Shown: in pieces, positions 2,935-48,190 of the stretch
How the letters are laid out: every line of letters starts with the position of its first letter
Numbering within the stretch: the first letter of the stretch is position 1
Assembly: GCA_964016885.1 (NCBI GenBank)
Contig: OZ024743.1
Span: 60,078,001 to 60,142,000 of the forward strand
Direction: 5' to 3'
Length of the DNA: 64,000 nucleotides
Origin: Eledone cirrhosa
Lineage: Eukaryota
Made by a program: the position numbers and the translations under genes
The notes under the pieces: model-generated
What the model was told of the DNA's origin: nothing
The model's database searches: none
The model's input: the letters and a program-made list of their open reading frames with translations, nothing else

Positions 2935-3859
2935 ATATATACAGTATCCCTTTAACAAAGACCTTTTGTTTTTCTTTTTCTATTTCTTTCTCCAAAAATA
3001 TTTCTCTGATCAATAAGACGCACACGTTCTTTTACTACCCTAATTTTGCCAATCCCATTCATCTCTCTCACCCATAGAATTTGTCTCTAGGCTACATTTC
3101 CCTCGTCGCCGACCCCATCTGAACTATTGACCCGTCCATTAACACAATTGAGATACATACACATATTTGAAGAACATTTCCCCTCTCCCTAAAAATAATT
3201 TTGTTATGTGGGAAAAAGTAAAACTACCACCACCGCAACAACTACTACTACTGACTACTACTACTACTACTACTACTACTACTACTACTACTACTACTGC
3301 TGCTGCTATGACTACCTCTCTGTTTATATATATATGATTCTATTTTAGATCAAGTCTTCTGAACAAGAAAGATGAATAAACCTGCCCCAACAATTAATTT
3401 TAAGTCTTTAATTTCTAATTAATTTTAAATTCTTTTTAATTGTAATACTCATCATTTGATGGGATGGATTTCACTGATAGATCGAACCGGTTACCTTTTA
3501 TTATATTTTATATTCATTCTAAAACTCCCTTTTTTTTTTTAAATGTACCTCTCATTTTTTAAATAATGTCACATTTACGAATCAAAGAAGAGAAAAAGAC
3601 AAAACAGAACCTTTAAATATATTTTACGTGCTATTTCCAATTCCAGTCTTTCTCTATAACCTCTGTTTTCTATAGAGCCTCACTCCTTTTTCAAATATAT
3701 ATATATATATATATATATATGTATATATATATATATATATATATATATATATTTATATATATATATATATATACGTAGGTCCCGAGTTGAGTCGGGGATA
3801 ACCACAGTAAGTAAGGTACTCAATACATGGCAGAGTAAAATATATTTATTGTATAGAAG

Positions 3860-3912
3860 CAGCTTCTACAGGACTAGTACTGTTTCATTCAGATGAAATC
3901 TTCGGGAAGCTG
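3860..3912 (-). ncRNA. Type I hammerhead ribozyme in PLE pseudo-LTR (core variant CCGAAGA)
   Basis: Minus strand reads cagcttc-CCGAAGA-t-ttca-tc-tgaa-t-GAAA-cag-tactagtc-ctg-TA-gaagctg. Confidence 0.7.
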
Positions 3913-4573
3913 GGTGTCGTATTAAGTTCTGGTATTTATACATTTAGGTAGTGGTAAGGGAGGGATGGTGGCTGGGGGTGGGGGGCATTTTGAGGGTAGG
4001 ATGGTATTTAGATACACAGGACCACAACATGGCACAGACCGTTTTTTCTTTGGGGAGTGGTCAATTAGCCAGAGTGCTTTTGTAAAATAAAAGGAAAAGA
4101 AAAAGAAAAAGTAAATAAATAAGTAAATAAATAAGTAAATAAATAAATGAATAAATAGATAAATAAATAAATAGATAAAAATAAATAAAAACCCCAAGTA
4201 TAGTAATTCAACAGATATATAGTAGGGATATTTTTTTAGGTGGGTGGGTATTAGAAGATAAACAAGACCGAATCATGGCACAGACTGGGGTGAGTGGTCA
4301 AGTTAACATACAAGCTACAGGTGGGCAGGGTGTTTTTGTAGAATGGAAAGAATAAAATATATTTACATACTCACAACCACATACATAAACACTTACACAC
4401 ACATATATATATTCATATCTATACACATATATATATATAGTTAGAGAAGCAAAAAAGTGCTTATTGTAATCCAGTTTTGGTTAAGAAAGCCAGTTTCATG
4501 AATGGTTTCAACGTACGGTTAGGGGTAACTCCACAAGTTTTTAAGAATTGCGTTCAATCTTGGAGTATAAGTA

Positions 4574-4993
4574 TAAAAGAGAAAACACAGGTAAGCATTA
4601 ACAGAAGGATTTAATCCAGGTATTTACGACCGTTTCATTGGTAAGTGCAACCTTATGTTGCTATACTGCAAATAGCAGCCACCTCAATTTGTCATTCTAT
4701 TTCCTACCTCTTCCCCCTTCCTCTCTCTCTATACTATGCCGTCTGTCCTCTCACCTCCTGATTCCTCTCTCTCTATACTAGTAAATACAATTCCAAATAA
4801 ATGTTTTTCTCTATATATTAAGAACTATTTCAAGGGTAACTCACTATTTTGAAAATTTGGACTGTGAACAACAATTATAATTGAGTGGCTGCTATTTGCA
4901 GTATAGCAATATAAGGTTGCACTTACCAATGAAACGGTCGTAAATACCTGCATTAAATCCTTCTCTTAATGCTTACCTGTGTTTTCTCTTTTA
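4574..4993. repeat. Inverted-repeat element inserted in the PLE 3' region
   Basis: ~115-bp arms at 4574-4688 and 4879-4993; contains GAAACGGTC, an HHR 3' half-like motif. Confidence 0.75.
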
Positions 4994-6054
4994 CATATAT
5001 ATATATATATATATATATATATATACACACACAAGAAAAAGCACGTACACACAGATATACACACACACGCATACACATACACACGCATATACATGCATAC
5101 ACACATATATATATATATATATATATACATATCTACACATATACATGTGTATATATACATATACATGTATGTATGTCTCTCGGTATAAACTATACTCTAC
5201 ATACATATACATACACATACACACACATACATACATATAGATACACACACATACATACACACATATACATATATACATATATATACACACATATACATAT
5301 ATACATATATATACACACACATATATATATATATATATATATATATATATATATATATATATATATATATATACACATACACACATATATGCGCACACGC
5401 ATACATACACATACACACATACAAATACATACACATAAACACATATACACATACACGCTCTCGTTCGCACACATACATGTATCTATATATATATATATAT
5501 ATTGGGAAAAAGTAGTGGGACAAATTATAAACTGAGCCTGATAGAAGATTAAAATATTTATTATCACTACTAAATTATTAATATTATCATCAAGTAATTA
5601 ATTATTATTTATTAATTCACTATTCATTACCTATCTTTTATCTTTCATCTATTCATTACTTAATCATTCACTTATTAATTAATAAATAAATGAATTAACT
5701 AACAAACAAACAAACAAACAAACAGATAAACAAATAAACAAATAAATAAATAAATAAATAAATAAATAAATAAATATATAAATAAATAGATAAATAAATA
5801 AATCTCGAACGTGTGCGTGTAGCAGTTCATAACTGCACGTATGCAAACATGAGCAGTTATATACATGAATTTGTGTGTGCCGCCACGGAACCTTACTCAG
5901 AGGCATACAACACAATATAAGACCTGGAGGGGAGGAAAGAAGGTAATAATGAGAGATAGAGGGGAGGAAAGATGGTAATAATGAGAGATGGAGGGACGGA
6001 AGTGGGATGGGGTACGGGGGTGGGGTGGTGATGGGGGGGGGCAATCGGGGGGCC

Positions 6055-44963: not shown

Positions 44964-45249
44964 TATATATATATATAATATAACTTAGAGTTTACACTCA
45001 ATGGGGTCATTTACAATTATTTCAGCTCAATTATTGAGCAGTATAAATTAATATATGATAAACATTTACATGTAAATGTTTATCATATATTAATTTATAT
45101 ATATATATATATATATATATATATATATATATATATATATATATATATCGTTTCTGAATTCGTGAAAAGTGAAAGCAACTGGTGCGTGTGTTTCTTATTG
45201 GCAACATGACCTTCCCAAAGTATAACAATATATATATATATATATATAT

Positions 45250-45484
45250 AGTTAAACAAAACAAGACCACACATTTCACAAGGAAGACATTATTAAAAGA
45301 TTGTCTACATATTTTAGTTTGATGTAAGTAATATAGAGATTAATAATAATAATAATAATGTTAATAATAATAATGTCCGTTTACAATTTCGCTACTCCAT
45401 ATAATATTACATCAAACTAAAATATGTTGACAATCTTTTAATAATGTCTTCCTTGTGAAATTTGTGGTCTTGTTTTGCTTAACT
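45250..45484. repeat. Inverted repeat with ~90-bp arms around an (AAT)n spacer
   Basis: 45250-45338 is the reverse complement of 45395-45484. Confidence 0.8.
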
Positions 45485-47566
45485 AATGAATATTTCCAGC
45501 TCTGCGCACCTAACTTCTGCATGAACCCAGCCACCTAGTTGCTCTCCACTGCATATTGCACATTGAGCCCATGCCTTTACGCTTTGGCTTCTAACTAATC
45601 CACCAATCCCTCCTCTCCTATCTCCTCTCCTATCTCTATCTCTCTCTTTAAGATTGATTACTCTTGAACTGTATATATATATATATATATATATATATAT
45701 ATATATATATATAAATATATATATATATATATATATATATATATATATATATATATATATATATACATATATATATACATATACATATATATATACATAT
45801 ATATATATATATATATATATATATATATATATATATATATACATATACATATATATATATGTATATATATATATATATATATATATATATATATATATAT
45901 AGAGAGAGAGATAGATATATATGTATATATACATATATATATATACATATATATATATATATATATATATATATATATATATACATATACATATATATAT
46001 ATGTATATATATATATATATATATATATATATATATATATATATATATATATATATATATATATATATAGATAGATAGATAGATAGATATATATGTATAT
46101 ATACATATATATATACATATATATATATATATATATATATATATATATATATATATATATATATATATATATATATATAGATAGATAGATAGATATATAT
46201 GTATATATACATATATATATATACATATATATATATATATATATATATATATATAGTATTAATTATACTATTTAAGGTTATGTAAATACAAAAACCTTAT
46301 GCAGTTATAAGTATTTCTTATATACACACCCTAAATAGTGGTAGGCAGTAATGTATTACTACCTTATTACCAGTAAGTTAAGTAGCTCAATGTAAAAACA
46401 TCAGATGATTTACAGAGCAGTTATATATACATATCCAAATTGCAACAGAAGCCCCCTCAATTCAATCTAGATATGGACAAATTGACAATCATATTAATCA
46501 TGCATCTCCTATCTCATGTACTGTATGTAATTTTTGTATTTATTGGATATTTTTTGTGTATTTAATATCTGTGTTTTTTGTGTGGGGGGGGGGGGGGGAT
46601 TTGTTCCATATGATAGAAATACTATCTAGGTACCCGCCAAACTACACCCATTCATGCTGTAATTTACCTTCCGTCCTACTGTACGGTACTATCGTTCAGT
46701 ATGTAGATAATATACCTTTAACATTGATGCCCCTTTCCAAACTTCTTACTTAAACACCTCCCTACGTAGTAGATAGTATAGGTGCACATATTTTTTTTAC
46801 TCACTTCAATCTAGATTCTCACTTGTACATTCTGTTAATTTTAAATTTTTGATTTCTGATTTTCGATTTTTAATTTTTAGTTTTAATTTCCAACTCTCCA
46901 TTCATAATTTACACTGTGAAACCATAATACCTAGAATTAAGTATATGTTCTCTTAGAGGTTGATGGTCAATTCTACTGTCCATGCTTAATTGAGACCTAT
47001 TGATACTCACACTCTCCCAACCCCACTGTCTTTCGGCTGACTGCCACTGACAGGGTGGCTAGCAATAAGCTATACATTACAGGCCTGAATAGGTCATTGT
47101 TTGGTTGAGAAGGGGAACTGCCTAGGCGAATTTCATTGAATTCTGCGGTAGCTAATGGTCAACTTCTTTCGGAGCTGCGCCTGCGGGGTAAATTGGTACT
47201 CACAAGGGAACGTACGAAGAACCCGGGAGCACATACTTCGTCCATTCCCATGTCGATTCAATTTGGATTGCCTCGGAGACATAAACTTATTATGTAACAA
47301 GCTGTCTGAGGATGTCGCGGCATTGGCGCACGGAACAGTGTTGCCACTGTCGCAAATTGAAATATATCTCACAGCATTATTATTAAAGGACTTGAACATC
47401 TGAAACTACTTCGCATTTCCTTATTCGATATTTACTCCGTCACACCTATGTGGGATAAGTACGTAGAGTTCTTGAATTGAATTGCATCAACATTTGCCTT
47501 AATAAGTATATATATATATATATATATATATATATATATATATATATATATATATATATATATACA

Positions 47567-48190
47567 TAAAATATGAAAACATGGCCTGCTGCGTGGTTTT
47601 CTCTGTATCTCTCACTTCCTTTTACCCCCTCTACCAGTGACTCTCTCTTTTAGCCTCTTACTCACACTTTCACTCACTCACTCTCTGCTACTCCCTCTCC
47701 TACTTCCTCCCGTTTGACCTGTGCGAGATTCTTTCCTCACTCACACATCGACCAGGTCGGATGGTCTTTATTCTCTCTCGTCTACGATTTAACAGAACAT
47801 ATGTTCATCGAATTCAGGGACTTGACTCCTTCTTCCTCCCGTTTGACCTGTGCGAAATTCTTTCCTTACTCACATTTCGACCAGGTTGGATGGTCTTAAT
47901 TCTCTCTCGTCCACGATTTCACAGAACTTATGTTCATCGATTTCAGGGACTTGACTCCTTCTTCCTCACTTTTCGTGGCATTACCATCTTTGTTTGTTTA
48001 CTGTCTCGCTCGTCCCCCCTATTTACGTGTCCCAACGACTTTCTTTAGCCGTTGCTCGCACCAACCAGAGGTATATGGTCTTTAAAGCGATGAAATACGA
48101 ATGAAGGCTGGAAGATCAGTGATGAAGGACTAAATCTATTCATATGTAACCCATTTGCAACCACGCAGCACGCCATGTTTTCATATTTTA
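47567..48190. mobile_element. Diverged family C copy in opposite orientation, bounded by ~31-bp inverted termini
   Basis: aaaatatgaaaacatggcctgctgcgtggtt / aaccacgcagcacgccatgttttcatatttt. The interior matches the reverse complement of the 8315-11555 unit (tttacgtgtcccaacgactt, caccaacc.gagg.atatgg), with an internal ~128-bp duplication. Confidence 0.8.

What the first reader, a model, noticed from the sequence alone, without database searches (positions are those of the whole stretch)
3775..48190. Shared rule across the window: hammerhead, strand inversion and (TA)n landing site
Seen: three coding PLE remnants (3.8-8.2, 14.7-16.7, 31.9-34.9 kb) and at least five non-coding families (A-E) are all inverted or foldback structures next to (TA)n, with well over a dozen HHR motifs in 45 kb. 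Known: PLEs carry HHRs in pseudo-LTRs and often integrate as 5'-truncated copies with an inverted pLTR. Inference: an ecosystem of autonomous PLEs and diverse non-autonomous ribozyme passengers using the same GIY-YIG/RT machinery, which may account for many apparent MITEs and hairpins in this genome.
Basis: partly seen in the sequence, partly recalled or inferred. Interest (0 to 1): 0.8.

Follow-up and report, generated by a model that had tools for sequence, protein, structure and literature searches.

The report
Penelope passengers and a permuted hammerhead
Non-coding ribozyme repeats in this animal genome land in TA microsatellites with the same two-ended footprint as Penelope-like retrotransposons, so those elements likely move them, and one family carries a predicted scrambled-order hammerhead ribozyme so far reported only from environmental sequence.

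Summary
The shared rule is real and genome-wide, but 'all are inverted' is wrong. The window holds three Hydra-clade Penelope-like (PLE) remnants, one Neptune-like 3' end, and four non-coding tandem families (A, B, D, E). In 1 Mb of random genome, 60 of 67 terminal hammerheads have (TA)n within 300 nt downstream (background 22-33%). Each family has two fixed 3' ends, short and long. In 50 of 53 inverted pairs one arm has each end (31 of 33 for non-coding families). This is the PLE 'tail' signature. (TA)n targeting, inversion and tail are already known for PLEs. I did not find them in print for retrozymes. Family A has no type I hammerhead. It carries all core bases in S-G-C order inside covarying helices, a predicted non-circularly permuted hammerhead. 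By eye, published Naiad PLE consensus ends, described as lacking canonical hammerheads, show the same layout. Cleavage, expression and raw-read support for the inversions are untested. The scan earlier noted PLE-style footprints and a permuted hammerhead on other DNA.

The parts
3775..8250 (.). PLE1, Hydra-clade PLE insertion: left arm on - (3775-7208, long 3' end with 65-nt tail, RT-EN coding 6062-7215), right arm on + (about 7329-8250, short end); (TA)n on both sides
   Evidence: clade motifs
8178..8230 (+). intact minimal type I hammerhead of PLE1 (the left-arm copy at 3860-3912 has a core change)
4441..4994 (.). nested foldback with a long and a short end and no complete hammerhead
8317..11555 (-). 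family A tandem array, about 4.1 units of 761-807 bp, direct, (TA)n on both sides, long 3' end at 8317
9134..9246 (-). predicted S-G-C permuted hammerhead of family A; further copies 8373-8485 (GAAA mutated), 9929-10041, 10736-10848, truncated at 11555
14545..16706 (.). PLE2, Hydra-like remnant: left arm on - to 16481 (GIY-YIG piece, tail), right arm on + 16482-16706 (short end); both hammerheads decayed
16739..16935 (-). single decayed family B piece
17840..18325 (-). divergent family A subfamily copy (unit about 520 bp elsewhere), motif at 17895-18007
18449..19226 (.). family B foldback (435-bp unit, type I hammerhead, both copies decayed here)
19467..21834 (.). family D two-armed array of 470-bp units; junction at 20680; short end left, long end (+59 nt) right; four intact hammerheads
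22041..22612 (.). F: foldback of the 3' end of a coding Neptune-like PLE; short end left, long end right
31837..34868 (.). PLE3, Hydra-clade remnant: tail arm on - to 33295, longer short-end arm on + from 33298 with GIY-YIG; hammerhead core variant CAGAAGA
38004..38155 (.). MITE-like palindrome between (TA)n runs; the end of a hammerhead-bearing family seen longer elsewhere
40325..40867 (.). older family D foldback
42036..42512 (.). family E foldback (332-bp unit); short end left, long end (+about 39 nt) right
44223..44965 (-). older family D direct partial tandem
47570..48188 (+). family A subfamily copy, motif 48023-48135 with a core change

Best explanation
The window holds Penelope-like retrotransposon remnants and non-coding tandem ribozyme repeats that end at the same kind of two fixed points in (TA)n, and the PLE protein likely inserts both by nicking both strands of a TA repeat and priming reverse transcription twice, once from each of two internal start sites 3' of the ribozyme. 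Shown: fixed short and long ends, (TA)n at them, outward-facing inversions pairing one short with one long end, either arm longer, no coding capacity in A, B, D and E, and abundant PLE open frames in the genome. From established work: PLE protein nicks and extends both strands and starts at two internal sites (PMC11167929); Hydra, Neptune and Naiad PLEs prefer (TA)n (PMC8557442). Inferred: the two cDNAs join at 0-10 bases of microhomology to give the foldback; direct copies arise when one priming event completes the insertion; short arrays are laid down at insertion from a circular or multimeric RNA; the longest arrays also grew afterwards by block duplication. Family A is inferred to be the passenger form of a Naiad-type 3' end whose ribozyme is a non-circularly permuted (S-G-C) hammerhead.
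For: Bimodal TA-followed ends in E, B, A, PLE1 and F, PLE3 and D. 50 of 53 diverging pairs are long+short, 3 long+long, 0 short+short. Random 1 Mb: 60 of 67 terminal hammerheads with (TA)5 within 300 nt downstream against 22% and 33% background; 19 diverging against 1 converging pair; 15 of 19 diverging pairs differ by 32-95 nt in distance to TA. Control retroposon: TA at 4 and 2 of 29 ends, 1 of 29 with an inverted partner. The short-end arm is the longer one in 6 of 17 non-tandem foldbacks, which one folded-back cDNA cannot give. (TA)n lies on both sides of 13 of 16 direct A insertions. PLE protein hits in passenger loci are at control level: D 1, E 1, B 2, A 3, control 2 of 30 each, PLE1 15 of 30. 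B and E tails are 77% alike over 44 nt. A motif: 34 pairs, 93.7% of cells paired, 12 pairs with two-sided change, 0 of 500 shuffles as high on three of five measures.
Against: No driver-passenger pair was identified: passengers show no clear homology to the four PLE 3' ends tested. No autonomous Naiad was found here (only a 20-base pattern was tried). No expression or cleavage data. Inversion junctions were not checked in raw reads. Loci came from best-hit lists, and the B query favoured long ends. A few of the 53 pairs may join two neighbouring insertions. For the A motif the structure was derived from the sequences counted, these are related, 5 of 500 shuffles reached the number of covarying pairs, all 500 reached the 'further pair types' measure, and 2 of 15 copies lack the single stem II pair. 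Nested folding gives stem I almost no probability in 13 of 15 copies, because it competes with stem III unless pseudoknotted.
Confidence: 0.85

Rival explanations
1. The inverted arm is made by self-priming or fold-back of one strand (the antisense self-priming model proposed for rotifer PLEs), not by two target-primed events.
For: Proposed in PMC3846280 (passages). In the window's D array, unit variants are mirror-symmetric at two positions, as copying of one arm from the other would give.
Against: In 6 of 17 non-tandem foldbacks the longer arm lacks the tail that the shorter arm has. No mirror signal in 6 other D loci that the script analysed. A shared heterogeneous multimeric template or arm-to-arm conversion also explains the mirror.
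Confidence: 0.2
2. The tandem families are not mobilised as passengers. They are satellites grown in place from truncated PLE ends by unequal crossing over (the route discussed in the 2026 preprint).
For: Long D arrays show duplicated 5- and 9-unit blocks. Many short foldbacks in the random sample are truncated coding PLEs.
Against: Dispersed arrays each carry their own ends and their own inversion junction at different unit positions. A 28-kb array keeps short end, inversion and tail. 17 identical units lie on two arms in L053. The sequence beyond each end is the next unit, not an ORF.
Confidence: 0.1
3. The foldbacks are assembly or library artefacts, and (TA)n adjacency only reflects a microsatellite-rich genome.
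For: (TA)8 runs occur about once per kb. No read-level support could be obtained.
Against: Arms differ by 3-10% in seven of eight window foldbacks measured. Ends are fixed and asymmetric. The enrichment is strand-specific, 42 against 17 of 65. The control family lacks the pattern.
Confidence: 0.03
4. The family A motif is a structured protein-binding or decayed element that resembles a hammerhead but does not cleave.
For: Stem II is one pair at most and the usual G10.1-C11.1 occurs in 1 of 15 copies. PLE hammerheads cleave poorly alone (PMC4209133, passages) and cleavage was dispensable for insertion in vitro (PMC11167929).
Against: Core blocks are nearly invariant while helices covary. The same layout recurs with other letters in Naiad consensus ends from several phyla (by eye). 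A natural hammerhead with a one-pair stem II is active (PMC3088659, passages).
Confidence: 0.25

Closest known systems
Hydra-clade and Neptune PLEs (Craig et al. 2021, PMC8557442)
   Same: C-terminal GIY-YIG, DKT and CxCx5C motifs, no CCHH (PLE1, PLE3); hammerhead in the pseudo-LTR; inverted 5'-truncated arm; one-sided tail; (TA)n targets
   Different: Tails here reach 60-95 nt against 30-40 nt described; PLE3 has a CAGAAGA core; no tree was built
Poseidon PLE of Anolis, two internal RT start sites (Frangieh et al. 2024, PMC11167929)
   Same: Two fixed 3' ends downstream of the hammerhead; AT-rich target; the tail is the start of the ORF in PLE1
   Different: The signature, called unique to PLEs there, is carried here by non-coding tandem repeats, with one end of each kind per inverted pair
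Non-LTR retrozymes (Cervera and de la Pena 2020, PMC7229834; Li et al. 2026, 10.64898/2026.07.22.740005)
   Same: Non-coding tandem units of 310-470 bp with one type I hammerhead each (B, D, E, L053 family); PLEs proposed as mobiliser
   Different: Those works rest on co-occurrence and pseudo-LTR homology; the parts I read report no (TA)n, inversion or tail footprint. Circular RNA is untested here. Family A is longer and not type I
Type-SGC hammerhead ribozymes (Eckert et al. 2023, PMC10085705)
   Same: Block order cleavage site, GAAA, CUGANGA; 3-4 nt linker from stem I to the stem II strand; a bridge between the distal ends of stems I and II
   Different: Reported from metatranscriptomes and not from genomes of known organisms. 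Here stem II is one pair opening into a multi-helix junction closed by an upstream strand. Cleavage untested
Naiad PLEs (PMC8557442, supplement Files S1 and S5)
   Same: (TA)n preference; 3' ends show, by eye, the same S-G-C layout with upstream hairpin and two bridging helices
   Different: Described as lacking canonical hammerheads. Family A is non-coding and shares layout, not recognisable sequence

Membership tests
Hydra-clade PLE (PLE1) | single ORF with RT then C-terminal GIY-YIG, element about 3 kb | tested here: met
   L281: hammerheads 3068 bp apart around RT and EN frames; L304 open frame
Hydra-clade PLE (PLE1) | DKT motif, CxCx5C linker, no CCHH, CxxC and CxH in EN | tested here: met
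   read in the translations against section 11 of PMC8557442; RWK is seen as RWR
Hydra-clade PLE (PLE1) | placement in an RT phylogeny | not tested
   no named reference set; homologues are almost all unnamed
Neptune PLE (F) | Cx2-5CxxC linker before a C-terminal GIY-YIG | tested here: met
   frame in L322; RT part not examined
Non-LTR retrozyme (B, D, E) | non-coding tandem units each with a type I hammerhead | tested here: met
Non-LTR retrozyme (B, D, E) | transcribed, self-cleaving, circular RNA | not testable with these tools
   no RNA holder listed
Non-LTR retrozyme (A) | type I hammerhead in each unit | tested here: not met
   no type I fold in A units; it works like a retrozyme but is not filed as one
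PLE-mobilised element | two internal 3' ends (tail), one-sided in inverted copies | tested here: met
   31 of 33 pairs for A, B, E; D
Type-SGC hammerhead (A motif) | all core bases in S-G-C order | tested here: met
   one of 15 aligned copies has a core change
Type-SGC hammerhead (A motif) | covarying stems I and III | tested here: met
   3 of 7 and 1 of 5 pairs with two-sided change
Type-SGC hammerhead (A motif) | stem II formed between the strands next to CUGANGA and GAAA | tested here: inconclusive
   one pair in 13 of 15 copies, then a multi-helix junction
Type-SGC hammerhead (A motif) | self-cleavage at the predicted site | not testable with these tools
   needs in vitro transcription
MITE (DNA transposon) | fixed terminal inverted repeats identical at both ends | tested here: not met
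   ends are unequal and junctions vary per copy

The most novel reading that the evidence does not exclude
Animal Naiad retrotransposons, thought to lack hammerheads, carry active non-circularly permuted hammerheads (S-G-C in cnidarians, cephalopods and arthropods; C-S-G in nematodes). Family A is a non-coding passenger bearing such a ribozyme in roughly 24,000 copies. Together with type I retrozymes it is inserted by PLE twin priming. This would place permuted ribozymes in cellular genomes and tie retrozyme arrays to a defined integration reaction.
Probability: 0.65. Interest if true: 0.88.

Novelty: new variant of a known kind. Interest (0 to 1): 0.8.

Why it matters
What mobilises animal retrozymes is open; PLEs were proposed from co-occurrence and homology. 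A PLE-specific two-start footprint on the passengers gives exact RNA positions to test with the existing in vitro PLE assay. The one-long-one-short rule constrains how PLE inversions form. The permuted hammerhead would extend a fold known from environmental RNA into animal genomes and correct the view that Naiads lack the ribozyme. At an estimated 160,000-400,000 intact type I hammerheads, these elements are a large unannotated part of this genome and will be misfiled as MITEs, satellites or microRNA-like hairpins.

Tried and rejected
Rfam gave only microsatellite-driven microRNA matches below threshold in the 150 of 263 rows shown and nothing in six loci. Pfam barely sees these PLE proteins: GIY-YIG at E 0.0055 for one of eight and no relevant family for the long frame. 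Sequencing runs: no RNA holder listed. Only contigs were available, and none bridged the D junction, which is no evidence either way. One independent sample holds family A with variants. A metagenome pattern scan for the A motif found nothing. A genome search with the 17.9-kb A subfamily returned nothing although the query itself lies in the genome, so it is uninformative. A short Naiad-derived pattern gave three chance hits in an unrelated RT and one decayed repeat. Reading A as type I, or as type II with a two-pair stem I, was dropped once the S-G-C pairing explained the covariation. F as a non-coding passenger was rejected. A monomeric circle as sole template is not established: L053 fits it, the window's D array fits a heterogeneous multimer better. 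Small TA-flanked pieces at 21897, 45251, 48222, 11720, 44084, 44978, 31440 and 25800 could not be tied to a hammerhead family. PLE2 and PLE3 ends were read from chance copies in held loci, not from best-hit lists. Coats 1994 and Lunse 2017 were not held.
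Full report
Setting. The window lies on a 379-Mb chromosome of a 3.0-Gb animal assembly. Its repeats look cephalopod to me, which is recall and was not tested. (TA)8 runs occur at 9.3 per 10 kb genome-wide and 13.3 per 10 kb in the finding's range, so adjacency to (TA)n needs controls. Family letters are mine.

Observation. A strict type I hammerhead descriptor finds 9 motifs in the window and none in each of 20 shuffles. Intact family copies from other loci, used as queries, find 22 sites when decayed ones are included: PLE1 2, PLE2 2, PLE3 2, B 4, D 8, E 2, F 2. 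The three coding remnants are real and each is an inversion with both 3' ends pointing outward into (TA)n. Several passenger copies are direct, so inversion is optional.

Identity of the coding elements. A natural full-length PLE1 copy has hammerheads 3068 bp apart around RT and GIY-YIG frames, with DKT, CxCx5C, CxxC and CxH and no CCHH. These are the Hydra-clade features listed in PMC8557442 (section 11 read), where almost all Hydra families insert into (TA)n. PLE3 has the same linker. PLE2 keeps only an endonuclease piece. The protein search had 59,338 first-look candidates, and many of the 139 scored copies have open frames of 750 aa or more. F continues upstream into a Cx4CxxC linker and GIY-YIG in 9 of 33 distinct copies of its hammerhead, so it is a truncated Neptune-like PLE. 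No tree was built.

Non-coding families. B (435 bp), D (470 bp), E (332 bp), a 310-bp family met in the random sample, and A (518-807 bp by subfamily) are tandem units. PLE protein hits in their loci are at control level. B, D and E fit the definition of non-LTR retrozymes (PMC7229834, passages; preprint 10.64898/2026.07.22.740005, parts 1-3 of 5, supplements not seen).

Genome-wide test. I sampled 100 evenly spaced 10-kb stretches. They hold 89 strict hammerheads in 34 stretches; the bootstrap range is 53-136 per Mb and a shuffle gives 0. That is roughly 160,000-400,000 per genome. Of 69 array-terminal motifs, 67 had room to test and 60 have (TA)5 within 300 nt downstream, against 22% for random positions and 33% in the same stretches. 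The bias is directional, 42 against 17 of 65 within 150 nt, and same-family opposite-strand neighbours diverge 19 times and converge once. A short retroposon with target-site duplications shows TA at 4 and 2 of 29 ends and an inverted partner once.

The tail rule. Every family has two preferred 3' ends followed by TA: E about 39 nt apart, B 35, A 45, D 59, F 60, PLE1 65, PLE3 about 90. Among 53 diverging pairs with both ends classed, 50 combine one long and one short end, 3 are long+long and none short+short; for A, B and E alone it is 31 of 33. These come from best-hit lists of 30 loci per family, the B query favoured long ends, and a few pairs may join neighbours. The unselected sample agrees: 15 of 19 pairs differ by 32-95 nt, 2 are symmetric and 2 are unclear. 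A one-sided tail and inverted arm are known for PLEs (PMC8557442, PMC3846280, passages). In vitro the tail is the stretch between two internal RT start sites, and the protein nicks and extends both strands (PMC11167929, parts 1-2 of 4). I found no report of this footprint on retrozymes in searches, in a library that lacks most subscription papers.

Mechanism. Either arm can be longer. The tail arm is longer in 4 and shorter in 7 of 11 two-armed D arrays. In 17 non-tandem foldbacks the short-end arm is longer in 6, the tail arm in 9, and 2 are about equal (read from alignment extents). When the longer arm lacks the tail, one folded-back cDNA cannot supply both arms, so two priming events are the simplest reading. 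The 8 D junctions that could be resolved overlap by 0-10 bases; 5 more fall in the internal microsatellite. (TA)n flanks both sides of 13 of 16 direct A insertions, with 6 loci dropped at edges and 3 inverted ones counted apart. This favours a pre-existing target over added repeats. On array origin the evidence is mixed. L053 has 17 identical units on two arms. The window's D array has mirror-symmetric variants, which suits a heterogeneous multimeric template or arm conversion. A 28-kb array keeps both ends yet shows duplicated 5- and 9-unit blocks, so it also grew after insertion.

Family A's ribozyme. A has CUGAUGA but no downstream GAAA. Across subfamilies the order is: cleavage block ending in AUA, stem I strand, 3-4 nt linker, GAAA with its stem III strand, second stem I strand, CUGAUGA. 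This is the S-G-C permutation of PMC10085705 (abstract, sections 7, 13-15, 18 part 1, passages and a supplement search), which that paper did not find in genomes of known organisms. An upstream strand adds a hairpin, a helix to the bases after the core, a helix to the bases before GAAA and a helix stacked on stem I. On 15 distinct copies, 93.7% of cells pair and 12 of 34 pairs change on both sides; slid controls pair at 29-48%. Caveats: the structure was derived from these related sequences, stem II is a single pair, and nested folding cannot model the pseudoknots. A one-pair stem II is compatible with activity (PMC3088659, passages). An S-G-C descriptor finds only A-like copies in about 2 Mb held, 8 in the random Mb and 0 in shuffles, or about 24,000 copies.

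Link to Naiads. PMC8557442 says Naiads lack canonical hammerheads and flags eight as 'half core'. I read consensus 3' ends in its File S5 by eye, from two parts of the file and two motif searches, not from all 54 entries. The same layout appears with different letters. Two octopus entries: stem III 4 bp, stem I 6, bridges 5 and 5. Three coral entries: 12, 6, with 6-bp helices to the strands before GAAA and after the core. A squid entry: 6, 6 and one 6-bp bridge. One entry near part 9, two near part 12 and one near part 19 (by file order a hydrozoan, box jellyfish and an ostracod), all with stems I and III, both bridges and a helix to the bases after the core. A ctenophore entry has a weak stem I. 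Two further cephalopod entries show no core at their 3' end. Nematode entries show the C-S-G order with all three stems. No tool scored these readings. Searches found the S-G-C term only in the 2023 paper and no link to Naiads. I found no autonomous Naiad in this genome, having tried only a short pattern.

Earlier scan notes, unchecked leads. Mini-PLE palindromes with tails in a shark (e1-7858806, which led me to PMC3846280), a tRNA-bearing tandem repeat with a PLE footprint (e1-7810660), a permuted hammerhead near a PLE tail (e1-7354453), and twister-like motifs in Naiads of other genomes (e1-6818684, e1-9935298, e1-7769516). None covers this genome's hammerheads.

Verdict. The PLE part is known biology. 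The footprint on non-coding passengers is shown here and makes PLE mobilisation likely (0.85). The permuted hammerhead is a strong structural prediction that awaits a cleavage assay. Other papers seen: PMC4209133, PMC13282606 (no occurrence of 'ribozyme'), PMC2220036, PMC6685494 and PMC8490949, as passages only.

Noticed in passing
units of B (L203), D (window 19467-19936) and E (L072): Each has a sense-strand octamer ATGCAAAT 88-151 nt upstream of the hammerhead core; A and the L053 family have none. Newt satellite 2 uses an snRNA-type promoter (cited in PMC2220036); that it has an octamer is recalled. Possible internal promoter.
   Followed up: partly
L203 and L072 tails: The tails of B and E are 77% alike over 44 nt although the units otherwise differ; a candidate recognition element for one driver.
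   Followed up: partly
PMC8557442 File S5, nematode Naiad entries: [quoted passage not shown]
   Followed up: partly
window 31944-32008 and 34790-34855: The PLE3 hammerhead has CAGAAGA in 12 of 15 copies and a CUU triplet in all 15, a family-wide core variant.
   Followed up: partly
window 4441-4994; L236, L269: Foldback family with long and short ends but only a GAAA half core in the retained part.
   Followed up: partly
window 19293-19387, 21897-21991, 22630-22691: 95-bp pieces with 10-bp inverted ends between (TA)n runs; no copies outside the window in the loci held.
   Followed up: partly
window 17840-22691: A chain of six insertions separated only by (TA)n runs, as if one microsatellite was hit repeatedly.
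   Followed up: no
window 13107-13472: A further decayed PLE-like RT thumb fragment, 31-42% identical to the baits.
   Followed up: partly
window 49081-50060: Non-LTR remnant with weak restriction-like endonuclease hits, flanked by (TTA)n and (TAT)n; R4/Dong-like by recall.
   Followed up: no
window 51910-55368 and 59938-63117: Two LINE copies 77-82% identical, with endonuclease and RT Pfam hits; (TA)n runs almost vanish after 48.7 kb.
   Followed up: no
window 2061-2928: Element with inverted ends and a transposase-like frame; mariner-like by recall.
   Followed up: no
window 39215-40291; L053 1-3180: 600-bp tandem repeat family, also tandem at 615-bp spacing elsewhere, with no hammerhead found by the descriptors.
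   Followed up: no
L349 1380-1700: Decayed 165-bp dimer with S-G-C order and a stem I resembling that of the octopus Naiad entries.
   Followed up: partly
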